From Candidatus Bathyarchaeota archaeon (GTDB lineage: Archaea; Thermoproteota; Bathyarchaeia; Bathyarchaeales; DTEX01), in contig CAVQNT010000002.1 in assembly GCA_963714275.1 (NCBI GenBank), positions 384,001-448,000 on the forward strand: a DNA stretch of 64,000 bases, in the 5' to 3' direction. Made by a program: the position numbers and the translations under genes. Shown in pieces: positions 3,339 through 47,781 of the stretch (position 1 is its first letter; every line of letters starts with the position of its first letter). The notes under the pieces are model-generated. The model saw only the letters and a list, made by a program, of their open reading frames with translations. It was not told the DNA's origin and ran no database searches.

Positions 3339-4051
3339 CTAATAACGTTTTGCATTCTTTCTTCCGTAAGGGCAGACATAGACGCAAAGACCGCAGATGC
3401 CTTCTCCCATGGTTTGGGCTCTTTTATCCGTATAATCCTTGCATAAATGAGCTCTAAACCTTAAATCTCTAGGTTCTGAAGGGTCGAAGGGTCTACCGGT
3501 GAACGCTTTTACGGGGCATATTTCAACGCATTCTAGGCAGTTCCCACAACGATTATCCATAGGTCTTCCAGTTCCCAATGGTGCGTCTGTCAACACTGTT
3601 GCCCATCTTACCCTAGGTCCATATTCAGGAGTAATCAGTAGACAGACTTTTACCTATCCAGCCTAGACCAGCAAGGTGAGCTGCAGTTTATGAGAGAATG
3701 CTCCCATCAACCTATTCTGGTTAACCGTTTGAGAAGCTGGGATTTGATAGTCTCTAAAATTGGATTCCTGTATCTTCTTTGCTACTGCAAGAGATGCCCT
3801 GTCAAGGCTGCTATTCACAGAGTTGTACAACCCTCGATACGTGTATATTGCTGATGGCTCTTCATGGCGATAAAGTTCATCCACCACTGCGTCCAACAGT
3901 CTAATACCTATTGAGACAGCCTTAGGAAACGCTACAATATGTTCTCCACCTTGCGCCAAAACGAAATTGCGAGCTTGAATAATGTCTGCTGCCCAAAAAA
4001 GTCTGCTCCCAAAGCCTTAGCAGTGTTTTCTAAATCATTCCGCAGATTCAT
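3339..4051 (-). CDS. Epoxyqueuosine reductase (QueG)-like 4Fe-4S protein (frameshifted)
   Basis: ORFs 3663-3959 and 3339-3596 plus the intervening LLITPEYGPRVRWATVLTD; CGNCLECVEICP and CGLCVYVCP. Confidence 0.8.
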
Positions 4052-4336
4052 AAAACCATCCTGAACTCTCCCGCTGCATCTGGAAGATAAGCTTATCGCC
4101 CACAGCTACTACTGGAAGAAGCCAAAGCTTGTTTTTCCAGTAAACATGATTCTTTTAAGGCGTTTGCAGGGCGAGTGGTTGACCGATAACCTTGAGGAGA
4201 CTTCTGGGTATTCTTCCACCTTTCTATGCAGAGCAAGACCGACTTTAAATGTTAATTACAAATTCTATGTAACCTTTTTCAAGATCTATTGGAAGAACAT
4301 TCTCGTCAAGCATGCCCCAGGCTCTAGCTGTTTGCT

Positions 4337-5194
4337 TCAACTTTTAAGGAAAGCCAAGATGTCTGTTTGAAACTGGCGTTTGTTGTCGTCAAAGGCGTTG
4401 TGTCCAAATCCTTTATAGAGGATCAACTTGGCATTCGGGATCCCCTCAGCTGATTCACGATTCAGATAGAACTTGTCTTCTTCTCCTCCGATGACAAGAG
4501 TGGGCACCTTGATCTCAATCAGTTGCTCCGAAGTGAAGTCATGATTTACCTCCGCCTCGGCTTCTACCAACCCATCCGAGGGGTCGCCAGAGGCGCCAAA
4601 CATGCTCTTTCCAAAGAGCCACATTAACAACTTAAAAACGTACTTTTTTAGTCCCTTGGGATATATCGAGGTAACCATAAAGACAGCTGCCTTTCTCCAT
4701 TTACCCTGACGCGCCAAGTCACCTACGTGCCTTGTCCATTCCTTACCTTCTTCACTCAGGCGATAACCAGTCTCGGCAAGGACTAAGTGGCGAATCAAGT
4801 CGGGATGATCAACAGCAAAGTGATGGGCAATCGGTCCCCCTGACGAAAGTCCTATTATGTCAACCGGCCATGCTAACTCTTCCTTTATCATGGCTGCGTA
4901 GTCGTCGGACATGTCCCGTGTAGAGTACCCAGCAGGTAAACCTCCCCTTCGGCTTACATAATATACCGTGTATTCTTTCGCAAGTTCCTTGAAGCTACCT
5001 GAAACCATTCGAAGTTGGAAGCCAGATGGAGGTTTATGTTCAAAGTCAGGCCCTCCCCCAAAGATGACTACAACTCGTTGCCCGCTTCCCATACGGAAGA
5101 ATGGAAGTCCATTCTTGGAATATCCTGTTGCTGCTTCCGGCTTTGTGCCATGTTCTTTAGTCATGAATCCACCCACTAATTGCATTATCAACAA
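4337..5194 (-). CDS. Alpha/beta-fold hydrolase
   Basis: GLSSGG nucleophile elbow, PTLVIGGEED, GFGH. Confidence 0.9.
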   Translation of the reverse strand: MLIMQLVGGFMTKEHGTKPEAATGYSKNGLPFFRMGSGQRVVVIFGGGPDFEHKPPSGFQLRMVSGSFKELAKEYTVYYVSRRGGLPAGYSTRDMSDDYAAMIKEELAWPVDIIGLSSGGPIAHHFAVDHPDLIRHLVLAETGYRLSEEGKEWTRHVGDLARQGKWRKAAVFMVTSIYPKGLKKYVFKLLMWLFGKSMFGASGDPSDGLVEAEAEVNHDFTSEQLIEIKVPTLVIGGEEDKFYLNRESAEGIPNAKLILYKGFGHNAFDDNKRQFQTDILAFLKS

Positions 5195-36752: not shown

Positions 36753-37289
36753 TTGAAGAATAGAGAACATTACAGATTCAAAAAACTTGGGATGAAAAGC
36801 ATGAAGAAAGTCCTTTTTCTATGTACACACAATTCGGCACGGTCACAAATGGCTGAAGGGTTGCTTAGGCATTTTTATGGTGAAAAATACGAAGTCTTCA
36901 GCGCAGGTTCAAGCCCGACGCAGGTTCATCCCCTCGCCATTAAGGTTATGGCTGAGATAGGGATAGATATTTCAAAGCAGACTTCCAAGAGCATTGAAGA
37001 GTTCCAAAATAAGGATATTGACATAGTTGCATCAGTGTGCAGCAGCAGCCCGAAAATCATCTGTCCATTTTGCTCCTCACCGATGCTTCGAGGCAGACCT
37101 GAGATAATTGACACGACATTACCTAGAGCAAAACATTATCTCCACCATGGTTTCAGTGATCCTTCCGAAGTGGATGGAAGTGATGAGGAAAAGATTGCTG
37201 CCTTCCGACGCACAAGAGATGACATCAAAGAGTGGATATTCGGTTATTTTGCCGATCTAAAGACAGACAGCTCGAATAGTCGTGCATAA
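36753..37289 (+). CDS. arsC: Arsenate reductase, LMW-PTPase type
   Basis: FLCTHNSARSQMAE, SAG, DPS, FRRTRD; likely start near 36792-36801. Confidence 0.88.
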   Translation: MKNREHYRFKKLGMKSMKKVLFLCTHNSARSQMAEGLLRHFYGEKYEVFSAGSSPTQVHPLAIKVMAEIGIDISKQTSKSIEEFQNKDIDIVASVCSSSPKIICPFCSSPMLRGRPEIIDTTLPRAKHYLHHGFSDPSEVDGSDEEKIAAFRRTRDDIKEWIFGYFADLKTDSSNSRA

Positions 37290-37522
37290 AACATTTTGAG
37301 TCTAGCTGAGAAACACTGGTCGCGAGTTCAACGGAGCCAAAAAATTTCAAAAACGTAAGTGATGTACCATTATAATGTCCAAATATTAGTAATATGATCT
37401 ATTTGAACTATCCAAGTCAGATTTCAATAAGTCTTTCAGCAAGTCGCAAACTCCTCTCCCTTTTTATATATAACATTAAATAACAAGTTAATCTGCAGAA
37501 ATTTTTTGGTCGGGATTAAAGC

Positions 37523-37699
37523 ATGTATTATCGAAAAGAAGGCAAAATGTTTTTACAGAAAGAAGTAACAATTGGAAAAATGGAGAAAGGTTACATAATA
37601 ATTTTAAGAACCAAAAAAAATCCGGAGTTTCCAGATGAAGATGTGTACGTTACTCTCGATGAGGTACTAAAAAGAGCCAAAGAGTTTTTAGAAGAATAA
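37523..37699 (+). CDS. Small hypothetical protein (58 aa)
   Basis: MYYRKEGKMFLQKEVTIGKMEKGYII...TLDEVLKRAKEFLEE*, read manually. Confidence 0.5.
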   Translation: MYYRKEGKMFLQKEVTIGKMEKGYIIILRTKKNPEFPDEDVYVTLDEVLKRAKEFLEE

Positions 37700-37943
37700 A
37701 CCCTCTAGGGGTCTTTGATAATTTAGACATAACATTTGCTTAAATGAAACGATATGTGTCATAATGTTGCAGATTGTTTAACTAGCTGTATGGAATCAAG
37801 CAGAGAAAACGTAGTGTCTGTTTCCCAATGTTTCTGAATTGGTGCACAGCGTTAGGTGGCACGAAAACTACATATCCTGGTGTTAACTGTTTCTCAGACA
37901 ATATTGGTAGAAGAGGAAGAGCAGTTATCGGCGGGTTTAAGGT

Positions 37944-38963
37944 ATGAATAGACTCTCCATTCCAGAACCCGTATCTGCGGGAATCTTACTTACGTACAAA
38001 TGTAGCAGCACATGCAAACATTGCATGTATGCTTGTTCTCCAAGCTGGAAAAGCGATTGGATCTCTGAGGAAGACCTAAAAAAGGTTCTGGCACAACTGT
38101 CAGGCAAGATTAAAGAAAATGTTTATGGACCAAAAAGTGTTGGAGTAAACTCTGGGCTCCATTTTACCGGCGGTGAGCCTTTTCTCAATTTTAACCTTCT
38201 TCTGCAGGCGGTGCAGATGGCTGTTAAACATAGGATTCCTTCTGTTTTCGTAGAAACCGATTGCTTCTGGTGTGTCAACGAAGAAACTGCAAGAGAAAAA
38301 CTCAGACAACTAAAAGATGAGGGATTGAACGGCATATTGATCAGTGTAAACCCGTTCATACTTGAACAAGTACCATTTGAAAAAACCCAAAGAGCAATAC
38401 GGGTGGCTAGAGAAGTCTTTGGAAGAAACCTGATGGTTTACCAAGAGGTTTTCTATCGCCAATTTGAAAGATTTAGACTGAAAAGTGCTTTGCGTTTTGA
38501 AGAATATTTGAAATTGTATGCTGACAGTCTGAGCTTTGCGGAGCTTATCCCGATGGGCAGGGTTCCATATAAGCTTGGGTTCCTATACAGGAAACATCCT
38601 GCAGGACAGTTTCTAGCAGAATCCTGCAGAAACGAGTTAACAAGAGAATGGCATGTTCATGTTGACAACTACTGTAATTACATGACTGGCTATTGTGGAG
38701 GCATTTCTCTAGGAGACGCGAGACGCTTGAACACTATTTGCAGTGAAGGAGTAGACTTGGAAGAGCATCCGGTTCTTAAGGCTCTAGCGAACAATCTTGG
38801 AGAACTGTACGAGTTAGGCGTTGAAGAATTTGGCTACAAGGAAACAAGCGAAGGTTACATCTCTAAATGCCATTTGTGTGTAGATGTTAGGAAACATATT
38901 GTGCAGGAAACCGATGAGTTCTCGGAACTGAGCCCAAGAGAATTCTATCAAGGTTTATGCTGA
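37944..38963 (+). CDS. Radical SAM protein
   Basis: CSSTCKHC, FTGGEPF, C-terminal CHLC. Confidence 0.9.
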   Translation: MNRLSIPEPVSAGILLTYKCSSTCKHCMYACSPSWKSDWISEEDLKKVLAQLSGKIKENVYGPKSVGVNSGLHFTGGEPFLNFNLLLQAVQMAVKHRIPSVFVETDCFWCVNEETAREKLRQLKDEGLNGILISVNPFILEQVPFEKTQRAIRVAREVFGRNLMVYQEVFYRQFERFRLKSALRFEEYLKLYADSLSFAELIPMGRVPYKLGFLYRKHPAGQFLAESCRNELTREWHVHVDNYCNYMTGYCGGISLGDARRLNTICSEGVDLEEHPVLKALANNLGELYELGVEEFGYKETSEGYISKCHLCVDVRKHIVQETDEFSELSPREFYQGLC

Positions 38964-39839
38964 AAAAAGGTTCTTCAGAACAGCAGATAGCAAGTCACTA
39001 GATAGCATCTTGACAGGATGGCTTAAAAAAGGGAAGCTGAAAAATGGCATAAATCTTACGGGGAAGAATAATGACAAGCGCGCACGGAAATCCTGATGTT
39101 CTTTCAAGGGAGCTTCTACATTCAACACTTGATTATAGCTAAGCTGGCTTTGGGATAGTGTCTTGACTATTCTTCTTGACCCACTACTTTCAATGTATAA
39201 CATGATTACTTCGGGTTCTTTGGGGATTTCTTCTCTTATTCTTCTTAAGAATTCGTCACTGTGAATCCAGTCGCGTACAAAGAATAATAGGTAGCCATAT
39301 TTTACTTCGTTACTTACCTTCTTCTTTGGATCCTTAGTTTGTTCAAGCGCTGCATAGTCACTTAGTTTTAGTCTGTCCCACTTCATGTGGTGGATTGCAT
39401 CCCCAAGGTTAGAATTGTGCTCGACTAGGTTGAATTCAATGGCGATGAACGTTTGTTGTTCTTTCTTAATGTCTTCAGTTTTACTGGCACGAAACAACCT
39501 TTCATTGACTAATGTTGGATTCCAAATGCACAGGTCGAAATGGCCACGCGACCCTTCCGGCTCGATTTTTAGATGTTTCCTGCTGTATCTTTCTTTCGTT
39601 GGGTACTCCTTATGCAATAGAATGCTCTTCTTCTGGTCACATGTTTCAAATATGCCATCCAAACCAGATTGAACCAATTTACCATAAAGTTGGTTGTAGA
39701 GAAAGCAGTGCAGATCACTCTCGATATAAAACAAAAATGGATTCGAAAGGAACGTCTCTACCGTTTTACTAATGCATTCTTTTACAATGTCCACTAATAC
39801 TTTATCCTTAGATGGCACATTCGCTTCCGATTGCTTCAA
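38955..39839 (-). CDS. Putative PD-(D/E)XK nuclease-like protein
   Basis: ESDLHCFLY...EYP...GHFDLCIW...AIEF pattern; K is not conserved; the C-terminus may be read-through. Confidence 0.5.
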   Translation of the reverse strand: MKQSEANVPSKDKVLVDIVKECISKTVETFLSNPFLFYIESDLHCFLYNQLYGKLVQSGLDGIFETCDQKKSILLHKEYPTKERYSRKHLKIEPEGSRGHFDLCIWNPTLVNERLFRASKTEDIKKEQQTFIAIEFNLVEHNSNLGDAIHHMKWDRLKLSDYAALEQTKDPKKKVSNEVKYGYLLFFVRDWIHSDEFLRRIREEIPKEPEVIMLYIESSGSRRIVKTLSQSQLSYNQVLNVEAPLKEHQDFRARLSLFFPVRFMPFFSFPFLSHPVKMLSSDLLSAVLKNLFSA

Positions 39840-39894
39840 TTCAGACCCTCAGTATTTATAATTATTTTAATGATATCTTATTGGTGGTTATAAA

Positions 39895-40488
39895 TTGTGG
39901 ATGGAATATCGAATCGCAGTAAATTTTGAGAGACAAAAAGAAATTATAAAACAACTTAGAAAACACATACAAGATTTTGAAGAGCATGGGCTTATACAAG
40001 GATACGCATTTAATCATTATTACAATTTGTCTAGTGAACCAGACACACTACGCATAAGATTCGATTATCAAAATGAAGATGGACAGAATATAGTTGAGAA
40101 AGAGTTTGAAAAGGAGGTTAACCAACTAGTTCCACATTATACTTTGCAGAAATGCCCTTGGGATAGTGATGAGGAAGTTTTAAAGGCTTATGAGTTGGGT
40201 TCAAGATGCGCCTTTCTCTTTTGGGAGTTGATGGAAAAGGGAAGATTTTCAGTAAATTACCTTTATGATTTCCTGCCTTCATTGGGACAGCAGTCTCAGA
40301 TAAGCCTTAATTTTCAACGGCATTTTAATCACGGCATCATGAACTCACTTGGTGTTCCAAAGATACCGCAAGAACAAATAATCCACTTTATGGCTTTATT
40401 GGAAACTACAGGATCTTTAAACTGCTCAGAATTATGTAGTAACATTCAGAAAAATCCATTACTATCAAGCCTTATCATAATTCGTTAG
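39895..40488 (+). CDS. Hypothetical protein
   Basis: 197-aa ORF; LRIR and H-x-x-x-N-x-LG motifs. Confidence 0.6.
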   Translation: MWMEYRIAVNFERQKEIIKQLRKHIQDFEEHGLIQGYAFNHYYNLSSEPDTLRIRFDYQNEDGQNIVEKEFEKEVNQLVPHYTLQKCPWDSDEEVLKAYELGSRCAFLFWELMEKGRFSVNYLYDFLPSLGQQSQISLNFQRHFNHGIMNSLGVPKIPQEQIIHFMALLETTGSLNCSELCSNIQKNPLLSSLIIIR

Positions 40489-40567
40489 TTTAGGTAATGC
40501 AACCCTTAATGATTTCAAGTCCTTGAATTCTGCTTGGATCTATTCCGGCTTATAAATTTGTTATAGT

Positions 40568-40778
40568 GAGCTAGAAGGAAGTTGCAAAACACACATTCCT
40601 TCTTCTTCTGGTTTAGAAGTAGTAGTTCCCGCAACTCACGGGACTACTACAACTAGATTAAACATTCCAGATAATCTTCTAAGTGTTGAATAATCTCTCA
40701 GGATTTTGTGTGTTGCGTTGAATGCTTTCTAACAGTAAAGTCTTAACCAAGCTGAAGTTTTGAGGCTGAGAACAATCA
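40568..40778 (+). pseudogene. Decayed copy of the hairpin-containing reading frame (hairpins U1, U2)
   Basis: ELEGSCKTHIPSSS-GLEVVVPATHGTTTT-RLNIPDNLLSVE*SLRILCVALNAF*Q*SLNQAEVLRLRTI; homologous to segments at 42460-42990. Confidence 0.65.
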
Positions 40779-40898
40779 GAAGTTGTTGCCCACTCTGTTT
40801 CTGTAAGATCAACATCTTCTAGTTTTAATATTCAACAGAATTTGCATCTGTAGACCTTTTAAATGATAGAAATCAAATAATTGTATCGAATAATGATC

Positions 40899-41856
40899 AT
40901 GAAGAAAAGGAAAAAAATCGCCACTGCATGTGCTTTCATGACTATTGTAATAGTTTTTGTTATCTTCTGCGTACCTATGGGTTTCCACCTATTCAATGTT
41001 TTTTGGGCAAAGAGACATTATAAACACTGTCAAGGAAATTACCGCGAACGAGACTAACTCGGTCGCCATTCTAAACAAAATTGCAAATTGGCTTAACAAT
41101 CACATTACGTATGATGCGCATGGATTCTATTTTTATCCGGTGCCTCCGTTATTTCTAGGCAGAAAGGTTCCGGCAGATCCTGCCTGGACAATGACCATTA
41201 GATGTGGAGCATGTGAAGAAGAAGCTGTCCTATGCACAGAAATGGTCCGCTCAATAGGGATGCAGGCCAGAGTAGTGTATAATCCCGCTGAGGATCACAC
41301 TTGGTGTGAAGGCCTGATTAATGGGTCATGGGTTCATTTTGATCCGGGACTCTCGGAAGATAAGAGATTTAATAACCCCGGCTTTTCTGAGTGCCCTAAA
41401 CCGAATGGATGGTGTAAAGAACTGTCCTATGTTTACTTTATGAATGCTGACGGTAAGCAGAATGATATCACCAAGACATATACCGACATTGGAAGACTTA
41501 TTGTTCAAGTCGAGAAAGATGGTCAGCCGGTAAAGAACGCTAGAGTTAAAATAGAAAGCAGATTCCTGATGCTAAACTACCCATCTTCCTACAGTCAACC
41601 CCAATTCTGCTTAGAAAATCGGACTGACGACAAGGGTCAATGCATATTCGATTTGGGAGGTAACAATTACACTGTTAGTGCTGAATTAGGGACTATCCTT
41701 GGATATAGAAATGAAAGCATCATAAGCCTCAAAGAGAACAGCAAGACATCCGTGACCTTAACTCTGTCCAATTTCTCTCCCCTCATGCCGATTGATTATG
41801 TCGTGGCAACATTGGTTGTAGCACTCGCTGTTACCTTGTTACTATTGAAACCATAA
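40899..41856 (+). CDS. Membrane-anchored transglutaminase-like / peptide:N-glycanase-like protein (frameshift near 5' end)
   Basis: RCGACEE, DHTWCE and WVHFDP triad; GWCKELSYV...DITKTY; hydrophobic N- and C-termini. Confidence 0.75.
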
Positions 41857-42119
41857 TGATCTACAAGAAATTAAAGATGCATACTCCCAACAAAAGAGGA
41901 GACAGAAATCCCAATAGCCATGATATCAGGATTTCAAGAGACTCTTAGGGAAAATGAATTCATACTCAATACAGAAAATTAGCCTATATTAACCCACCAT
42001 CTGTAAAGTATCATTTTATTTGTCCGACTCCATCCCACAAATTTTAGACTTGATGAACGGGGCAGTTATGGGTTCTATTCTTATCGACTTATCTAGCGTA
42101 GAATCTAGCTGAGAGCTGA

Positions 42120-42380
42120 CTAGCGTATGTTTCTCAAAAAATCGAAAAGGATGTTATTGAAGGCATAGAAAAATTCTGTTCAGAAGACTTAGATTATACC
42201 TCATGGGGTAACTTTTTGGTTTTATACATACTTTCAGTAATAACATTCTGTCATGAAAGATTCACTCGTTACCCCGACCGTGAATTTGGTCCTTCAGACT
42301 ATCAAATAAGTTTGGGAATTGTCGATGATATTCAATCCATCTGGAGCGAACTTGAACAATTATTTTCACTAATCGAATAG
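42120..42380 (+). pseudogene. Start-less 86-codon fragment, HEPN-like C-terminus
   Basis: Open frame LAYVSQK...LYILSVITFCHERFTRYPD...DY..SLGIV...LIE*, bounded by CTAG motifs. Confidence 0.55.
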
Positions 42381-42459
42381 CTAGCAAAAATTATTGAAAT
42401 CGACTAAATAGATGATTCCGTCTTTAAACTCAATGATTTAACCGATAAAGTCAACATCA

Positions 42460-42990
42460 TCAAAAATATCATTTCAGAAGTAGTCCCCGCAACTTACAGG
42501 ACTACTACTTTTAAACCAAACCTCTAAAGAGATGTTCAAACCAAAAGAAGTTGACCACACGAAAACAGCGTGGTCAACAACTACTGTTCCAATACGCAAC
42601 TTTTTTGTGAGTATGTTTTCTCTTTTTTCCAAGAATTCTTCAATAAGATTAATAAACTTACGTTCATGTACAGAATTTTAAGTGGTTCCTCATCTCTTGG
42701 TAGTTCATCTGGAATAACAAAATTAGAAGAAGAAGAAACATCCGAATCCGCATTTTCTTCTTCTACTATTCCTAACCGTCTATTTTTATGATTAACATTA
42801 TCAACCGTTTTTCCGAGAGCTGACAGTAACGACCTCATTAAATTTATATTCAAACAAAAATCTATAAAGCCTACTCTGTGTTCGGAAGATCAGAAGGGAT
42901 ACTTAAATCAGAAGTAGTAGGATTCTATGTTTTGCTATGTCCTACTACTTCTAAACCATGCTTCATTTTCTGATAAACAGTCATGTCCGA
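42460..42990 (-). repeat. Tandem array of four decayed copies of a hairpin-containing reading frame (U3-U6)
   Basis: Inverted repeats at 42479/42499 (8 bp), 42550/42570 (9 bp), 42728/42754 (11 bp) and 42910/42940 (13 bp), each within a G-x-x-(VVV/EEE)...(TTS/SSS/STS) frame. Confidence 0.75.
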
Positions 42991-43037
42991 AGTGATGATC
43001 AAGGGTTGGAAGTAAGATCAACGGTTCAGAGGATTGA

Positions 43038-43391
43038 TCATGCCTGGTTTGACTGTTTCAGGTTTCTTTGCTGCCAGAAAGAGCAAGATGGCTCCAGCAG
43101 ATGAGTCCAGGTATGCTCCCGTTGACAGTACATTTTCTCTTTGCCAAGTCGTTCGCAGAGGGCTAAAACGTTAATCACCGGCTCAGGCTTGACGAGGGGA
43201 TCAAGAGATTTGGCGGAAAGGATCTCTTTGCAGAATGTTTTTAACTTCTCCATGTCCTCAGCAATAATGTAGATCCCGTTTCGACCGCAGAACCTGCAGT
43301 TTCCGCATCGTTTTGCCTCTTTTTCAAGGTTTATTTTTGGAAAACGACCTTCAGCAGGCTTCATAATAATAACTAAATATGCGTAAAACAT
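43038..43391 (-). CDS. Hypothetical Cys-rich protein
   Basis: RCGNCRFC...YC...CSFW; divergent from the element's operon. Confidence 0.55.
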   Translation of the reverse strand: MFYAYLVIIMKPAEGRFPKINLEKEAKRCGNCRFCGRNGIYIIAEDMEKLKTFCKEILSAKSLDPLVKPEPVINVLALCERLGKEKMYCQREHTWTHLLEPSCSFWQQRNLKQSNQA

Positions 43392-43645
43392 AAAAACTTA
43401 ATCCTCCCCCCTCACATCCCGATAGTTTTTGTATTAAATATAGAGTTTAAAAATAATAAAAACTTCAAAATTTGTCATTATTAAAAAAATAATTCTACCT
43501 TGTGACTATTTTCTTTACGAAGATAAAAAAATGAACTAATTTTAATTTTTAACTTTTATTTAAGTATTTAAATCATACCTAATAGTTTTTCTATAATTGT
43601 AGATTTATATACTACTAGTTCACGAGTATTTGACCGTGGTTAATC

Positions 43646-43822
43646 ATGAGTCAAAAGCAAGCCATGTTATGGGCTAGAGTTGACATAAACATCAAAGAAA
43701 TAGTTCACAAACTAGTGGACTGCAAGGGTATCACTATTAGTGAATATGTCCGAAGCCTAGTCATTGATGACCTTGACAGAAGAAATGTTTTCACAACAAA
43801 ACTAAAAGAGGAATTACGATGA
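43646..43822 (+). CDS. Ribbon-helix-helix (CopG-like) protein, 58 aa
   Basis: MSQKQAMLWARVDINIKEIVHKLVDCKGITISEYVRSLVIDDL...; not in ORF track. Confidence 0.75.
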   Translation: MSQKQAMLWARVDINIKEIVHKLVDCKGITISEYVRSLVIDDLDRRNVFTTKLKEELR

Positions 43823-43945
43823 GTGAAAAGACCGTTACAACTGGAAAAATGGATCTTAGAAAGCTTATTCGTAGAGCTTGATGAGATTCTCCGAATTTTG
43901 AAAGGCAAGGCTCCAGAACCAAGCAGGCAGAAGAGTTTAGAATGA
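43823..43945 (+). CDS. Small hypothetical protein (40 aa)
   Basis: GTG directly after the RHH stop; its TGA overlaps the next ATG (ATGA). Confidence 0.45.
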   Translation: MKRPLQLEKWILESLFVELDEILRILKGKAPEPSRQKSLE

Positions 43946-44286
43946 GTAAAATAGAAGGCTCCTTTGATGTAATTCTTGCAAGACTTAGGGATTGGCTTCA
44001 AGGCGCCGAGGAGCTGAAGAACCTTCTTGACGAGTATCTTTCAGTAAAGGTTGAAACTGAAGAAAGGGCTAGAAAACACAACTGGGATCCTGAGAGGATT
44101 AGTTGGATTCAGAAAGAGGGACCTTCAGGAACCTATTTTCTAGCTGAGAAACAGGATTCACAGGATTTTAAGGCTGCGGTTCAAGACCTAGAGAATCATA
44201 AAGGAAAGATGAACCTGGGTGAGTATTTCTATTGGAAATTCGATTCAGGCGCTGTTGGAAGGAAACCAAGCAAAAAAGGAAAGTAA
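43942..44286 (+). CDS. Hypothetical element protein
   Basis: 114 aa, in operon with RHH and Rep. Confidence 0.7.
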   Translation: MSKIEGSFDVILARLRDWLQGAEELKNLLDEYLSVKVETEERARKHNWDPERISWIQKEGPSGTYFLAEKQDSQDFKAAVQDLENHKGKMNLGEYFYWKFDSGAVGRKPSKKGK

Positions 44287-44292
44287 ACTCTA

Positions 44293-46236
44293 ATGAGTTC
44301 TCAAGAACCACGAAGCGACATTAAATACAGCATTCTAGATTCAGGAACCAAAGGAATAGCAATAGGACTGGAAGAACGCTTCTTAATTGTTGAGAAACTT
44401 AAAGGTGCATGGAAGACTCAAACTAATCAATATTCAAACAGACGAAACGCTAACAGCATGGAACTATGTTAAAAACCTAGCAGACCTGAGAACAGCATCG
44501 AAATATAAGGAGCTAAGGGAAGCTATCGGATTTGAAAACCTAGAAAAAACATTGATAGCCATCGAAAACAATGCTGACGAGTTTGACGAAAACAGAGAAT
44601 CAGAGACACAAACAACAGAAGAAACACAGGCATCAGGAACATGTAACGAAGGATATTTTGAACTCATAATAAACGAAGAATTTAATCCTTGCTTTCTTGT
44701 CTGTAATAAAGGGCATTTTACAGTTATGGATTCTGTGGGCTTAAACAGTCACATTTTTGTTCCTAAAACCTTGAGACAGATTCCTTATTTACCTTATAGT
44801 TTTTACGAGGATTCCTTACCAAACATGGAAGATATTTTCAGCAAGGTTTTTGACGAATTTGACGCATATTGCGATGTTGAACCAATCTGGAAGCATGTTC
44901 TAACTGCAAGTGTTTTGCTTTCATACCAACAGGAAAAGATTCAGACAGTTCCTTACCTCTACCTGTATGGAGATAATGAGTCTGGGAAAACCACAGTTCT
45001 GAATGTTCTCAATGAATTGTGTTATCGTCCTATGTTCGGTGTAACTGTTCCTTCAGTGACATCTACGGGTACCTTGAGGATTCGGACTGTATCCCAACAA
45101 TTCTAGAAGACGAGATACAGGGTATTGAGAAAGACGAGAATAAAGTTAAAATCTATAAGTCAGGCTACAAAAAAGGTGCATGTGTCCCTAGAACCGTGTT
45201 GCTTGAACATGGGAGAGAAATCCAGTATTTTCGCACATTCAACTTTAAAGCTGTTGCTGCTGAAAGAATTTCAACAGTAAAAGGCTTCGTTGAACGGTTC
45301 ATTTTTCTTCCAATGGTTCAAGGCTTTCCAAAGAAGGAATGGGCTGACAACAGTGTCAGCGATTCTGCAAGGTTCCATGATCTTAGAAACATGTTGCTTA
45401 AGTGGAGACTGTTAACAAGAGATGAACCTTTACTTAACTTGGAATTACCGTTTAAAGGACGCATTAAGGAACTATGGAAGCCACTGTTACAGTCCGTTTA
45501 TGGACTTAAAGCGTTTCAGACTTTACTAGACTTCGTAGAATCCCAGATTAAGGAACGGTTAGAAACAAGACAGGGAACCCTAGAAGGAAAAATCGTTAAA
45601 GTTGTTGGAGAACTTTTCGACGATAAACCTATCCCATTCACTGATATTTGGGAACAGTTAAAGAATGACCTTGAGGGAACAATTGACAACAAAAAGAACT
45701 ATGTGATGCTGACCTCGGAATTTGACGAAGTTACTAAGTCGAAGGTAGGATATCGGTTAAGAGAAATTCTTAGCGGTGAACGGGAAACCGTTCGTATCGA
45801 AGGTACACCTACTAAGGCTTGGATGTTCGACCGTTTTAAACTTGTGCGGATATTGAAGAAATATGGCTATGATGAGCTTGTTACCAAGTTACCAAGTGTA
45901 CCGAGTTCCGAGGGTATAGAGGACATTATTCATAATAACGACTTATCCAAAATGGGCTTTAATTCCGAAAAAAACCACGATTTACAAGATGCGAATGTGG
46001 ATAAAAAGCCTTCTATACCTCAGGAAGTCGGTAACGTCGGTAACTCGGTAACAGAAGAAATCAAAGCTGTTTTTCGTTGGAAACATGTGAAACCTAGCGA
46101 AAAATGTCCATTATGCGGAACATTGGCAGTTGAATATGAAGTAACCCTTGACGATGAAACATTACTGAGACGATGTTCAAACTGCTTCGATGACTTAAGA
46201 AAAAAATTCATGAACGTTGAATGGAGCGAATATTAA
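44293..46236 (+). CDS. Putative replication protein: P-loop NTPase/helicase-like with C-terminal Zn ribbon (two frameshifts)
   Basis: YLYGDNESGKTT Walker A, ILEDE Walker B, SGYKKG, ER; C-terminal CPLCG...CSNC. Confidence 0.7.
45880..46052. repeat. Long imperfect inverted repeat with 8-9 bp iterated units inside the rep gene
   Basis: gttaccaa-gttaccaa-gtgtaccga-gttccgagggtatagagg (45880-45922) pairs with ccttctatacctcaggaa-gtcggtaac-gtcggtaac-tcggtaac (46009-46052). Confidence 0.75.
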
Positions 46237-46412: not shown

Positions 46413-47672
46413 TTGTTTTTTACTTTAACAGTCGTCAAACAGTGTGGTAAAATAGTGATTTGCCCTAATTGTAGTTCAATAGATTCCCAGCGGAATGGAC
46501 ATCGAGAAGGCAGGCAGAGGTGGCGATGTAAAAACTGCGGCAGAGAATACTTGGAACCTATAAATGATGATGATTTGAAGTATTCTGAACATGACCCAAT
46601 AGTTCAGACTAGGTCTTTAAGTGACACCATGCCTACTGGTCTCTTGAGCCAGAGCTGTACTCGCAGGAGTAGTCCGCAGTCAGCGGGTCTCCTCGGGCTG
46701 GATAGCCTGGCACAAGAGAAGGAAGAAGGAGAAGTGCAGATATGCGAACAACTACAGAACAGCGACCTGCTGAAAAACTTTCCTGACCAGATAAAACCCA
46801 AACTACTGCAATACGCAACAAAAGAATGGAGTAAGGGACGATCAGTTAAAAGCGTTGAAACATACATCCGCAACCTTAAGCAACTAGTGAAACATGGCGC
46901 TGACTTATTCGACCCAAACTCTGTTGCAGAAACCATCGCTCAAAATTCCGAATGGGCTAATGCGACCAAAGTCAACAAAACTGAAGCATACGACTCATTC
47001 CTAAAATTTCAGGGCGGCTTTTGGCAAAAACCAAAGTACAGGGCTGAACGGAAGTTGCCTTTCCTGCCACTTGAAACCGAGATTGATCAGCTAATCGCAG
47101 GGACAAGTAAGACCGTTGCAGCAGCACTTCAGGTTGCGAAGGAAACCGCGGCTAGACTAGGAGAAATAGGAAGGCTGAAATGGACAGACGTAGATTTCGA
47201 GCGAAGGCTCATTGCGGTAAATGAGCCTGAAAAAGGCAGCAACCCCAGAATAATACCGGTCACAGCAAAATGCGTTGAGATGCTCAATCACCTTCCAAGG
47301 AAGGGCGAACGAATCTTTAAAAACATCAAATGCGCAAGTGCGACGCTGATTCAACAACGAAATCACCTCGCGTATAAACTGGGCAACCCTCGCCTTAGGC
47401 AAATTCACTTCCACACACTGCGGCATTGGAAGGCTACCATGGAATACCACAAACGGCCAGACCCGTTTTACCTCAGAGATTTCTTGGGCCACAAGAACCT
47501 AAAGAACACCGAGATCTACGTGACTGTTGAGCGGACAATCTTTCAGACGCAATCAAGCGACTTCACCGTAAAAGTGGCTTCGACTCTTGACGAGTTCACA
47601 AAGCTGCTTGAGGTCGGCTTCGAGTACGTCTGCGACTACGGCGACAGGAAGGTCCTGCGGAAACGCAAGTGA
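46413..47672 (+). CDS. Tyrosine recombinase/integrase with N-terminal zinc ribbon
   Basis: R (TAARLGE), K (PEKG), HTLRH, LGHK, TEIY; N-terminal CPNC...QRWRCKNC. Confidence 0.93.
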   Translation: MFFTLTVVKQCGKIVICPNCSSIDSQRNGHREGRQRWRCKNCGREYLEPINDDDLKYSEHDPIVQTRSLSDTMPTGLLSQSCTRRSSPQSAGLLGLDSLAQEKEEGEVQICEQLQNSDLLKNFPDQIKPKLLQYATKEWSKGRSVKSVETYIRNLKQLVKHGADLFDPNSVAETIAQNSEWANATKVNKTEAYDSFLKFQGGFWQKPKYRAERKLPFLPLETEIDQLIAGTSKTVAAALQVAKETAARLGEIGRLKWTDVDFERRLIAVNEPEKGSNPRIIPVTAKCVEMLNHLPRKGERIFKNIKCASATLIQQRNHLAYKLGNPRLRQIHFHTLRHWKATMEYHKRPDPFYLRDFLGHKNLKNTEIYVTVERTIFQTQSSDFTVKVASTLDEFTKLLEVGFEYVCDYGDRKVLRKRK

Positions 47673-47781
47673 AACCGAAAAAATATAACTAAAAACCCAA
47701 AAACTAAACAAAAAGGTTTTTTAGTGTCGTTTATATCCTTTTGTGAGAAGATGATTGAAAACTTGGATTAAAGAAAGGTGA

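What the first reader, a model, noticed from the sequence alone, without database searches (positions are those of the whole stretch)
40568..42990. Array of structure-conserved, sequence-variable hairpins embedded in one decayed reading frame beside an integrase element
Six inverted repeats are seen directly. U1: agaaggaa-N15-ttccttct (40573-40603). U2: gtagtag(t)tcccg-N7-cgggactactac (40619-40650). U3: agtagtcc-N12-ggactact (42479-42506). U4: gttgaccac-N11-gtggtcaac (42550-42578). U5: agaagaagaaa-N15-tttcttcttct (42728-42764). U6: agaagtagtagga-N17-tcctactacttct (42910-42952). U2-U6 occupy the same position in homologous peptides: GLE-VVV..TTTT-RLNIPDNLLSVE, FGLK-VVV..TTS, LRIGT-VVV..STS-FGLNI, RRLGIV-EEE..SSSS-NFVIPDELPRDEEPLKIL and HGLE-VV..TTS-DLSIPSDLPNTE. 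The amino acids change (VVV/TTT versus EEE/SSS) but the arms stay complementary, which points to selection on DNA/RNA structure. Only the segment around the hairpin is repeated. Inference: a structure-recognised recombination site, analogous to integron attC but unrelated in sequence, inside a small element gene and accumulated by successive integrations. The recombinase at 46.4 kb is the candidate enzyme.
Basis: partly seen in the sequence, partly recalled or inferred. Interest (0 to 1): 0.9.

Follow-up and report, generated by a model that had tools for sequence, protein, structure and literature searches.

The report
Conserved hairpin inside archaeal virus packaging gene
The hairpins are real and are broken copies of a small DNA-binding gene of Bathyarchaeia tailed viruses, in which a hairpin is kept while its sequence and the encoded amino acids change; its role is unknown, most likely a packaging signal, and it is not the insertion site of the neighbouring integrase.

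Summary
All six inverted repeats exist at the stated coordinates, plus a seventh degenerate one, and their density is far above chance. They are fragments on both strands of a ~150-aa virus gene with an N-terminal GcrA/Myb-like HTH, a disordered linker and a helical C-domain. This gene lies directly upstream of the large terminase in 71 of 74 related loci, so it is a candidate small terminase. The linker-coding DNA holds a perfect 7-15 bp hairpin in 55 of 60 distinct homologues, mostly from viral contigs, and in 15 of 29 further genomes. There are four main arm classes. Both the encoded residues (V/T, E/S, Q/C) and the synonymous codons are complementary, and the class switches at least 15 times on the gene tree. 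Selection on nucleic-acid structure is therefore well supported. The attC-like interpretation is not. The integrase's att core (window 47706-47722) was mapped against empty sites in three relatives. The hairpins lie inside a ~10.9-kb strain-specific island. The integrase scores far below the integron-integrase cut-off. My best guess is a pac-like cis element inherited together with the HTH domain (about 0.4). Pieces containing the hairpin are scattered and arrayed in this genome without any terminase-large pieces, and a similar array occurs in another Bathyarchaeia genome.

The parts
40573..40603 (+). U1 hairpin. 8-bp arms of the GAA class, 15-nt loop. It directly abuts U2.
   Evidence: z -2.25; 86% identical to the hairpin of the G000:C7:34965-35008 copy
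40610..40786 (+). Decayed fragment of the candidate small-terminase gene (HMM positions 47-106, 3 stop codons). It begins at the base of hairpin U2 (40619-40650, GTA class).
   Evidence: U2 fold z -4.88; 77% identical to G000:C6:505740-505897
40778..40822 (+). Seventh, degenerate hairpin unit (GTT class, one mismatch). It is an inverted copy of the U4 region.
   Evidence: I1: 55 nt, 76% complementary to 42532-42586; z -2.06
40957..41856 (+). Transglutaminase-like ORF lying between the two hairpin clusters, which face each other as an imperfect inverted repeat.
   Evidence: Pfam Transglut_core 1.2e-14; inverted repeats I1, I2, I8, I9
42479..42506 (.). U3 hairpin (GTA class). Homology to the paralogous array at G000:C1:27081-27473 starts exactly at its left arm.
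   Evidence: z -4.30
42550..42578 (-). U4 hairpin, 9-bp arms. The arms are identical in the C1 array; the loop differs.
   Evidence: z -4.59
42668..42838 (-). Gene fragment (HMM positions 25-81: end of the HTH, the linker, and the start of the C-domain). It holds hairpin U5 (42724-42765, GAA class, 11 bp, two registers).
   Evidence: z -4.94
42856..42954 (-). Gene fragment holding hairpin U6 (42910-42952, GTA class, 13 bp). There is a stop codon in the loop.
   Evidence: z -6.12
44387..46236 (+). Two overlapping ORFs (239 and 405 aa) with a Walker-A-like motif. They have no confident family and may be a replication protein of the island.
   Evidence: only sub-threshold hits
46413..47672 (+). 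Tyrosine integrase with an N-terminal zinc ribbon. It is not an integron integrase.
   Evidence: Pfam Phage_integrase 1.1e-17; NCBIfam XerA_Arch 81.5 bits, integron integrase 42.7 bits against cut-off 265
47706..47722 (+). 17-nt att core at the integrase end of the island. The same 17 nt lie at G000:C4:82520-82536, and relatives have one uninterrupted site.

Best explanation
Shown:
- The hairpins are decayed, rearranged pieces of a ~150-aa gene of Bathyarchaeia tailed viruses. The gene has an N-terminal GcrA/Myb-like helix-turn-helix, a disordered linker and a helical C-domain. It lies directly upstream of, and usually overlaps, the large-terminase gene.
- The DNA encoding the linker carries a hairpin whose arms are strictly Watson-Crick complementary. 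The arm sequence, the encoded residues (V/T, E/S, Q/C) and the loop all change.
- The pieces lie inside a ~10.9-kb strain-specific island. The island's integrase uses a different 17-nt att core.

Inferred:
- The hairpin is a cis-acting nucleic-acid element inherited together with the DNA-binding domain. Most likely it is a pac-like site where the small terminase marks viral DNA for the first terminase cut. I think it is read as a fold-back in single-stranded or unwound DNA, because the 10-29-nt loops vary too much for a fixed dimer site on duplex DNA.
- Segments of about 150-250 nt centred on the hairpin persist and multiply on other elements and on the chromosome because they still carry this site. 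They could act as hitch-hiking signals or as decoys.
- The tandem and head-to-head arrays arose by recombination at the GAA-rich arms and motifs, not by integrase action.

The confidence given (0.4) is for the inferred pac-like mechanism; the points listed as shown I hold at about 0.9.
For: Gene identity:
- TerL (Terminase_6N, 2.2e-13) follows the gene in 71 of 74 loci.
- The AlphaFold2 model shows a three-helix HTH (residues 9-46), a disordered linker (pLDDT <50 at 50-60) and helices at 72-86 and 93-142. This matches the TerS layout described in PMC9611059 (passages).

Hairpin:
- The longest perfect hairpin of the whole ORF lies in the linker in 59 of 67 distinct genes.
- 70 of the 87 perfect hairpins of >=9 bp in 409,530 nt of related loci lie in this ORF.

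Covariation:
- Arm classes are GTA 15, GAA 15, CAA 12, GTT 11, other 2, none 5.
- A sequence's own partner arm gives a median stem of 11 bp. Partner arms swapped between classes give a mean of 5.1 bp and reach >=9 bp in 2.8% of pairs.
- At least 15 class changes occur on the tree, including well-supported sister pairs with different classes.

Synonymous sites:
- GTA pairs with ACT, GTT with ACA, GAA with TCT and CAA with TGT. These codons make up only 10-46% of their amino acid's codons elsewhere in the gene.
- Synonymous recodings reach the observed stem length in at most 5 of 100 trials for 45 of 64 genes.

Leaning towards DNA rather than mRNA:
- There is no excess of G:T over A:C at the stem ends: 25 against 19.
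- Stems allowing G:U average 11.69 bp and stems allowing A:C average 11.60 bp.

The site survives without the gene:
- Between the window array and the G000:C1 array, 1 of 56 arm bases differs against 15.5% elsewhere (P about 0.0009).

Specific spread:
- Pieces of this gene occur at 8 extra loci in the genome, all including or abutting the hairpin.
- TerL and the other genes of the conserved left half of the provirus have essentially no pieces elsewhere; the only pieces are from the ORF just upstream of the gene and one other ORF. Small ORFs and the integrase near the right end do have copies elsewhere.
- Another genome (G420:C47) has five hairpin units in 900 nt.

Precedent:
- P22's pac site lies in its TerS gene (PMC9611059).
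- A satellite mimics its helper's pac site (PMC11417361, abstract).

Not the integrase site.
Against: - No packaging data exist. No read termini, virion ends or binding data could be obtained.
- The protein matches no TerS profile. Pfam and PHROGs hits are GcrA-like or 'transcriptional regulator, D5-like' only. It matches no solved TerS fold (0 hits at E <=0.001).
- A whole lineage of homologues that is still followed by TerL lacks the hairpin: 5 of 60, and at most 15 of 29 in the replication set have one. The hairpin is therefore not needed for the gene's function.
- No known pac site is defined by structure. T4 terminase cutting did not need cruciform regions (PMC3074133, passage).
- Loops of 10-29 nt disfavour cruciform extrusion from duplex DNA (my own knowledge), which fits RNA or single-stranded DNA better.
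- The MFE of the 108-nt linker region is not exceptional against synonymous recodings (median z -0.40; 0 of 64 genes beat all recodings).
- Across the class, pieces containing only the N-terminal or only the C-terminal part also occur. The hairpin-centred pattern is clear only in this genome and a few others.
- The arm-conservation test chose the best register for each arm, which biases it slightly.
Confidence: 0.4

Rival explanations
1. The hairpin acts in the mRNA. A stable stem between the HTH-coding and C-domain-coding parts would slow ribosomes, set the ratio of the small and large terminase proteins, or serve as a processing or protein-binding site on the transcript. Under this reading the genomic arrays are functionless relics.
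For: - The hairpin always lies on the sense strand of a coding region that overlaps the next gene.
- Loops of 10-29 nt are ordinary for RNA hairpins and awkward for duplex DNA (own knowledge).
- The encoded segment is disordered, so it tolerates whatever residues the stem requires.
Against: - G:U pairs are no more frequent than A:C pairs. Stems are strictly Watson-Crick over 9-15 bp.
- The arms stay intact in non-coding, frame-broken array copies, where an mRNA role for this gene is gone.
- There is no Rfam match.
- No slippery site or U-tract was seen next to the stems (reading output).
Confidence: 0.2
2. The hairpin is a structure-recognised recombination site. It would be used by some recombinase or resolvase-like nuclease other than the neighbouring integrase. 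The heterogeneous arrays would record successive strand exchanges at the hairpins.
For: - Arrays mix arm classes from different sources.
- U1 abuts U2 directly.
- Homology between the window and C1 arrays begins exactly at an arm of U3, and U3 has pre-hairpin flanks on both sides.
- N- and C-domain types are shuffled across the linker.
- Integrase genes lie within 3 kb of pieces in 3 of the 11 fragment loci examined without TerL (L149, L152, L160), and also in the window.
- TerL nucleases share the RNase H fold of resolvases and integrases (PMC3074133, passage).
Against: - This integrase's att core lies elsewhere.
- Island boundaries are not at the hairpins.
- The gene is interior to the proviruses.
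- Viral contigs carry one hairpin each and no arrays.
- There are no ORF cassettes and orientation is mixed.
- The integron-integrase model is far below its cut-off.
- No Y1/HUH transposase is present in the genome.
- HMM matches break at the variable linker for technical reasons, so the clustering of fragment ends there is weak evidence.
- Several array junctions lie at GAA-rich motifs outside the hairpin.
Confidence: 0.12
3. The gene is a transcription regulator of the virus late operon, not a terminase subunit, and the palindrome is its own operator. The dispersed pieces would be regulator-plus-operator modules shared among mobile elements.
For: - The only profile matches are GcrA-like or Myb-like HTH families and PHROG 323, 'transcriptional regulator, D5-like', in 46 of 60 members.
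- Intact orphan copies exist without TerL, for example G000:C7:215246-215734.
Against: - Its position overlapping terL in 71 of 74 loci and its size and layout are those of a small terminase.
- Operators usually sit in promoters and have fixed half-site spacing. Here the spacing varies by about 20 nt and the arm sequence changes between close relatives with similar recognition helices.
Confidence: 0.1
4. Whatever the hairpin does in the virus, the chromosomal arrays are only scars. The palindromes would be fragile and provoke breaks or template switches, and repair through the GAA-rich microhomologies would join pieces of different copies.
For: - Junctions lie at 'LPSVEE|EKQL' in the G420 array.
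- One unit has a head-to-head arrangement.
- The two window clusters are inverted copies of each other.
- U5 shows triplet slippage relative to its C1 copy.
Against: - Scars should start or end at the hairpin. Most pieces in this genome instead span it with about 25-30 codons on each side.
- The arms are conserved far better than their surroundings.
- The nearby, much longer terL left no pieces at all.
Confidence: 0.15

Closest known systems
pac sites located inside small-terminase genes of headful-packaging phages (P22 gene 3; SPP1 and related phages)
   Same: - It is a cis-acting site embedded in the coding sequence of the small DNA-binding protein encoded just upstream of the large terminase, so site and specificity domain are inherited together.
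- The protein has an HTH, a flexible linker and a helical core (PMC9611059 passages).
   Different: - Known pac sites are defined by sequence (22 bp in P22). This element is defined by complementarity, with at least four interchangeable arm sequences and variable loops.
- No packaging evidence exists here.
- The protein matches no TerS profile or fold.
Integron attC sites with IntI
   Same: Inverted repeats whose structure is conserved while the sequence varies, found in arrays near a tyrosine recombinase.
   Different: - The recombinase has its own mapped att core and fails the integron-integrase model.
- There are no gene cassettes. Units are 46-180 nt apart and on both strands.
- The element sits inside a conserved virus gene at a fixed position.
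Phage satellites that carry their own terS or a mimic of the helper's pac site (SaPI/PICI; PLE of Vibrio cholerae)
   Same: An island with an integrase and possible replication genes but no capsid genes, carrying pieces of a helper-type small-terminase gene that include its putative site (PMC11417361 abstract).
   Different: - The pieces in the window are broken by stop codons.
- Some arrays (G000:C1) have no mobile-element genes nearby.
- No helper dependence, excision or packaging is shown.
- I know of no described satellite of an archaeal tailed virus (recalled, not searched specifically).
Palindromic elements tolerated inside coding sequences (Rickettsia palindromic elements) and REP/RAYT repeats
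   Same: Hairpin-forming repeats that can be read through as extra peptide segments and are dispersed in a genome.
   Different: - This hairpin is at one homologous position in a gene family, with compensatory change, not independently inserted.
- No Y1 transposase is present in the genome.
- The comparison with RPEs is recalled, not tested.

Membership tests
Integron (attC / IntI) | Adjacent integron-type integrase (IntI subfamily) | tested here: not met
   NCBIfam integron integrase model scores 42.7 bits against cut-off 265; the best model is archaeal XerA-like at 81.5 bits, also below its cut-off
Integron (attC / IntI) | Array of ORF cassettes, each followed by one attC, all in one orientation | tested here: not met
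   Hairpins are 46-180 nt apart within each cluster, on both strands, with no ORF between them apart from one transglutaminase-like gene between the two clusters
Integron (attC / IntI) | Recombination occurs at the site (junctions and synteny breaks map to it) | tested here: not met
   The att core lies at 47706-47722 and at C4:82520-82536. Island limits are at about 36.75 kb and 47.70 kb. The only junction at a hairpin is the start of homology with the C1 array
Small terminase subunit (TerS) | Gene immediately upstream of the large terminase gene | tested here: met
   71 of 74 loci; the other 3 loci end too soon to tell. TerL identified by Pfam Terminase_6N 2.2e-13 and PHROG 2 4.5e-33
Small terminase subunit (TerS) | N-terminal HTH, flexible linker, helical oligomerisation core | tested here: met
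   AlphaFold2 with 60 sequences, mean pLDDT 70: HTH at 9-46, disordered 47-71, helices at 72-86 and 93-142. The GcrA DNA-binding domain is matched at 8.1e-5. The layout is as described in PMC9611059
Small terminase subunit (TerS) | Match to a TerS sequence family or a solved TerS fold | tested here: not met
   No terminase-small family in Pfam, PHROGs or NCBIfam. Foldseek against PDB and BFVD gave 0 hits at E <=0.001, and the top hits are HTH domains
Small terminase subunit (TerS) | Ring oligomer that binds TerL and viral DNA | not tested
   No complex prediction or experiment was done
pac site | Packaging series starts at or near the site (virion DNA ends, read pile-ups) | not testable with these tools
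REP/RAYT or IS200/IS605 hairpin ends | Y1 (HUH) transposase encoded in the genome | tested here: not met
   PF01797: 0 matches in G000, which is 91% complete; the controls matched in 6 of 14 genomes
Described RNA families (Rfam 15) | Covariance-model match | tested here: not met
   Window 39500-44000, E <=1: one sub-threshold H/ACA hit at 41125-41184 and none at the hairpins
Phage satellite (PICI/SaPI-like) | Integrase, replication module and packaging-redirection module, without capsid genes | tested here: inconclusive
   An integrase is present. The replication ORFs have no confident family. The terS pieces are broken. There is no TerL or structural gene in the island

The most novel reading that the evidence does not exclude
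Bathyarchaeia tailed viruses mark their DNA for packaging with a structure-defined signal: a fold-back hairpin encoded in the linker of the small-terminase gene. Its arm sequence is free to change as long as both arms change together. Chromosomal islands and satellite-like elements collect arrays of such signals from several viruses, either to be packaged by them or to draw their terminases away. This would be the first structure-defined pac site, and the first pac mimicry or satellite-like parasitism described for archaeal tailed viruses.
Probability: 0.12. Interest if true: 0.85.

Novelty: new variant of a known kind. Interest (0 to 1): 0.62.

Why it matters
How small terminases recognise viral DNA is still unclear even in model phages. 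The review PMC9611059 (passages) says binding to pac DNA in vitro has been weak or sequence-independent. Here a virus family shows unusually clean compensatory evolution in the DNA next to the terminase's DNA-binding domain, visible even as paired amino-acid runs. That gives a concrete, testable candidate for a recognition signal read as structure.

It also gives a simple sequence marker for this group of Bathyarchaeia viruses and their remnants: an HTH, a hairpin and the LPSVEE motif. The family is present in 127 of 401 sampled genomes of the class.

It raises the question of why hairpin-centred pieces, but not the neighbouring genes, spread and form arrays in host chromosomes.

I found no description of this in the papers searched. 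Searches turned up none, and the Bathyarchaeia virus paper PMC10848311 has 0 occurrences of 'hairpin' in its main text. Supplements were closed and could hold relevant annotation.

Tried and rejected
- RNAalifold on a MAFFT alignment of 64 linker segments gave no consensus structure. Arms of different length and offset were not in register. Covariation was therefore measured with my own partner-swap and codon counts and not with the count of structure pairs.
- MFE of the 108-nt segments against synonymous recodings was not exceptional. Only perfect-stem length was.
- A first column-wise count of arm differences between the two arrays was spoiled by gap placement in the GAA repeats (7 of 60). 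It was redone with ungapped arms.
- I looked for direct repeats flanking the integrase inside the window and found nothing convincing. The att core came from comparison with relatives.
- Fold searches gave no terminase hit.
- PADLOC on nine island ORFs gave only a viperin-like hit for the radical-SAM gene.
- A pattern scan of viral contigs for the 11-bp GTA-class hairpin gave 9 contigs. Four carry the family (three already known plus L112). Five are unrelated AT-rich phage hairpins. No arrays were found.
- No RNA holder was listed and no sequencing run was listed for window 40300-43300.
A closer alignment, A2, worked.
- Considered and dropped: tRNA-derived att (no tRNA in the window); CRISPR repeats (no regular spacing); intrinsic terminators (no T-run after the stems); frameshift stimulators (no slippery site seen); a protein beta-hairpin as the cause of the V/T runs (it does not explain E/S and Q/C or the synonymous matching, and the model is disordered there).
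- Not done: the search for homologous proteins, the search of protein representatives, complex prediction, build_rna_model.
Full report
**The observation**

U5 can pair in two registers (42724-42765 or 42728-42764). A seventh, one-mismatch unit lies at about 40778-40822.

Seven of the window's 25 perfect hairpins (stem >=8, loop 3-25) fall in 2.4 kb. Genome-wide the rate is 0.37 per kb, and only 4 of 5292 sliding 2.5-kb windows reach seven. Folded as DNA, the seven units have z-scores from -2.1 to -6.1, and five are matched by none of 200 dinucleotide shuffles.

The units are not in one frame. U1, U2 and the seventh unit read on the + strand and U4-U6 on the - strand. The two clusters face each other as an imperfect inverted repeat around a transglutaminase-like ORF.

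**What the units are**

The same kind of hairpin occurs elsewhere in the genome (G000: 2.64 Mb, 10 contigs, a Bathyarchaeia archaeon by the titles of related records). The sites are C1:26913, C1:27326, C1:113453, C2:284230, C4:127190 and C7:34960.

Translation around them shows a common protein. It has an N-terminal 'KPWTxxEEKQL...KIxRLGL' domain, a short variable linker, then 'LxIPxELPSVEEALKxL...GLDxxEVxRL...YKELLADYxNYRxIE'. An intact 162-aa copy is at C7:215246-215734.

At C6:348920-349327 the gene lies directly upstream of an ORF with Terminase_6N (2.2e-13) and PHROG 2 'terminase large subunit' (4.5e-33). The protein itself gives only weak GcrA or Myb-like HTH hits and PHROG 323 'transcriptional regulator, D5-like'.

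An AlphaFold2 model built on 60 homologues (mean pLDDT 70) shows a three-helix HTH at residues 9-46. It shows a disordered stretch at 47-71 (pLDDT <50 at 50-60) and helices at 72-86 and 93-142. That is the layout given for small terminases in the review PMC9611059 (passages read). Foldseek found no terminase.

I therefore call it a candidate small terminase, on the basis of position and architecture and not of family membership.

**The family elsewhere**

Scans with a protein alignment gave 21 loci in Bathyarchaeia MAGs and 53 in IMG/VR viral contigs. A large-terminase homologue follows or overlaps the gene in 71 of these 74 loci, and the other three loci end too early to tell. No integrase lies within the 3 kb held upstream.

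In a sample of 401 genomes of the class, 127 have a match, some with up to 11.

**The hairpin in intact genes**

- In 67 distinct full-length genes, the longest perfect hairpin of the whole ORF lies in the linker in 59, with stems of 7-15 bp.
- In all 409,530 nt of the 74 loci there are 87 perfect hairpins of >=9 bp. Seventy of them are inside this ORF.
- The arms fall into classes: GTA (15 of 60 distinct sequences; residues E-V-V ... T-T-S), GTT (11; V-V-V ... T-T-T), GAA (15; E-E-E ... S-S-S), CAA (12; Q-Q-Q ... C-C-C), two others, and five sequences with no hairpin.
- The paired residues are what a one-base frame offset between complementary triplet runs must give.
- Each sequence's own arms pair over a median of 11 bp. 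Arms exchanged between classes pair over 5.1 bp on average and reach 9 bp in 2.8% of pairs.
- On a tree of the protein with the linker removed, the class changes at least 15 times. Well-supported branches alone force 5 changes for GTA, 4 for GAA and 5 for GTT. Examples include sisters L055 (GTA) and L058 (GTT) at 99/94 support.
- The change could be stepwise or by swapping the whole hairpin as a unit. Either way complementarity is kept.

Synonymous sites are tied as well.
- GTA (10% of Val codons elsewhere in the gene) goes with ACT.
- GTT goes with ACA.
- Glu in the paired runs is always GAA (45% elsewhere) and goes with TCT (16% of Ser codons).
- In the paired part of the stem, Gln is CAA and goes with TGT.
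- Random synonymous recodings reach the observed stem in at most 5 of 100 trials for 45 of 64 genes and in 0 of 100 for 16. The nine genes above 10 of 100 include the five hairpin-less ones.

Results against, or limiting, this picture:
- The MFE of the whole 108-nt segment is not unusual (median z -0.40).
- RNAalifold on a plain MAFFT alignment found nothing, because the arms were out of register.
- In an independent set of 29 further genes from other genomes, only 15 have a linker hairpin of >=8 bp. About a dozen, many from the same hairpin-less lineage, have none.
- The hairpin is therefore old, widespread and actively maintained, but dispensable.

**DNA or RNA**

G:T appositions (G:U in the mRNA) are no commoner than A:C at the stem ends: 25 against 19. 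Allowing G:U lengthens stems no more than allowing A:C does: 11.69 against 11.60 bp, n=55. This leans towards a constraint on both strands, that is on DNA, but only weakly.

The long, variable loops argue against a fixed dimer site or easy cruciform extrusion from duplex DNA. They fit a fold-back in single-stranded or unwound nucleic acid (own knowledge).

**Is it the integrase's site?**

No.
- In three same-genus genomes the DNA left of the proteasome-alpha gene is collinear with G000 contig C4 up to C4:82536. It then continues straight into what is window 47698 onward.
- The two G000 junctions share a 17-nt core, at C4:82520-82536 and window 47706-47722, immediately after the integrase stop.
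- To the left, synteny with relatives ends at window ~36745, next to an IS-like repeat. Nothing from 38.95 to 47.1 kb is found in relatives.
- The hairpin clusters therefore lie 3.8-7 kb inside a ~10.9-kb strain-specific island, not at its edges.
- The other end of the integrase's insertion is on another contig, so the island has been rearranged. I did not resolve how.
- In the two proviruses of G000 (C6:340-370 kb and C2:276-308 kb) the gene is interior, with homologous genes on both sides.
- The integrase is XerA-like below cut-off, and scores 42.7 bits against 265 for the integron-integrase model.

**The arrays**

An HMM of the family run on the six-frame genome finds the two proviral copies, the intact orphan and eight further loci holding partial copies. 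Every piece includes or abuts HMM positions 48-63, the hairpin.

By contrast, TerL and the other ORFs of the conserved left half of the C6 provirus have no pieces anywhere else. The only exceptions are a piece of the ORF just upstream of terS, which lies at the C6:505-506 kb fragment, and short pieces of one further ORF (C6:351679-352530) at two loci. Small ORFs and the integrase near the provirus's right end do have copies elsewhere (Pfam finds a single TerL). So this is not ordinary provirus decay.

The window segment 42479-42871 (U3-U5) has a paralogue at C1:27081-27473 (86% identity). That copy lies between ordinary host genes with no mobile-element gene nearby. Homology starts exactly at U3's left arm. 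Between the two copies 1 of 56 arm bases differs, against 15.5% of the rest (P about 0.0009). The best-register choice for each arm biases this test slightly. The loop of U5 has changed by an indel and several substitutions.

Arrays mix arm classes, so they were assembled from different sources.

Another genome (G420:C47) has five units with 11-13-bp stems in 900 nt, next to an integrase-like ORF. Some of these units are read through as tandem HTH-hairpin repeats joined at 'LPSVEE|EKQL'.

Integrase homologues lie within 3 kb in 3 of the 11 fragment loci I fetched that lack TerL. I chose those loci because they looked hairpin-centred, so this count is not unbiased.

Across the class, pieces with only the N-terminal or only the C-terminal part also occur. 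HMM matches tend to break at the variable linker for technical reasons. I therefore do not use the clustering of fragment ends there as evidence.

**Most likely mechanism**

The best-supported reading is a cis-acting element tied to the DNA-binding domain of the packaging protein. This parallels pac sites that lie in small-terminase genes (P22; PMC9611059), but it is read as structure. I put this at about 0.4.

- The persistence, spread and arm conservation of ~150-250-nt hairpin-centred segments without the rest of the gene fit a site that still works in trans. An example is the pac mimicry used by the PLE satellite (PMC11417361, abstract only).
- The island's content (integrase, possible replication ORFs, no capsid genes) is satellite-like, but this is unproven.

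Rival readings:
- An mRNA structure (0.2).
- Break-and-repair scars at a fragile palindrome, as an account of the arrays only (0.15).
- A structure-specific recombination site for some other enzyme (0.12).
- An autoregulatory operator of a transcription factor (0.1).

No packaging, binding or expression data could be obtained. No sequencing run was listed.

**Novelty**

Searches of the held library found no description of a conserved hairpin in a small-terminase gene or in Bathyarchaeia viruses. The founding Bathyarchaeia virus paper mentions the large terminase once and 'hairpin' never in its main text (passages only; supplements closed).

I rate it a new variant of a known kind (a cis site inside terS), with a genuinely unusual and clean covariation signature. 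The attC analogy and the choice of enzyme were not.

Noticed in passing
window 47698-47722 and G000:C4:82512-82536: The integrase's insertion site was mapped. Relatives G002, G004 and G001 have C4-like DNA running straight into the proteasome-alpha upstream region. G000 has a shared 17-nt core at both junctions, but on two different contigs. The island or chromosome was therefore rearranged after integration, or the assembly is chimeric there.
   Followed up: partly
window 37944-38963 (+): A radical-SAM ORF at the left of the strain-specific island matches PADLOC prokaryotic viperin models (pVip, 7.5e-8). It is a possible antiviral gene and has only ~64% identical, non-syntenic relatives in the genus.
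   Followed up: no
window 36807-37898: A repeat with 91% identical copies at G000:C4:114367-115463, partial copies at C6:542222-542857 and fragments in relatives. It lies exactly where synteny with relatives ends and is probably an insertion sequence.
   Followed up: no
G000:C6:368717-368748 and G000:C2:304207-304238: The same 11-bp-arm palindrome with a 10-nt spacer lies upstream of the integrase genes of the two related proviruses. It may be their attP core or an operator.
   Followed up: no
L149 (G420:C47) 3706-5047, minus strand: Open reading frames encode two or more HTH-hairpin units in tandem. One unit is fused to the C-terminal half of an ABC-type ATPase (ABC_tran 3.4e-5), and part of that ATPase is duplicated in inverted orientation nearby.
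   Followed up: partly
G000:C7:215246-215734 (L001:7247-7735): An intact 162-aa copy of the gene stands alone beside a glutamate dehydrogenase gene, with no large terminase. An ~89-aa winged-helix-like ORF that also accompanies other copies lies 2 kb away.
   Followed up: partly
loops of the hairpins in loci L027, L047, L048, L056, L057, L060, L067 and others: Many loops of the GTA, GTT and some GAA classes hold a small central palindrome of the CCTAGG or CTATAG kind, encoding K-G-Y or P-R. The dyad symmetry therefore extends into the loop in one large clade but not in the CAA class.
   Followed up: no
loci L028, L029, L031-L033, L127 and about ten more: A well-supported lineage of the gene, still followed by the large terminase, has a shorter linker and no hairpin. 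It is a natural control for any functional test.
   Followed up: partly
window 44387-45106 and 45019-46236: Two overlapping ORFs, the first ending just after a Walker-A-like motif, look like one replication gene split by a frameshift. No family was matched with confidence.
   Followed up: no
G000:C2:284080-284611 and G000:C6:348920-349327: Both proviral copies of the gene are frameshifted at or just after the hairpin. In the C2 copy the shift lies just after the hairpin. I read both as decay and not as programmed recoding, but did not test this.
   Followed up: no
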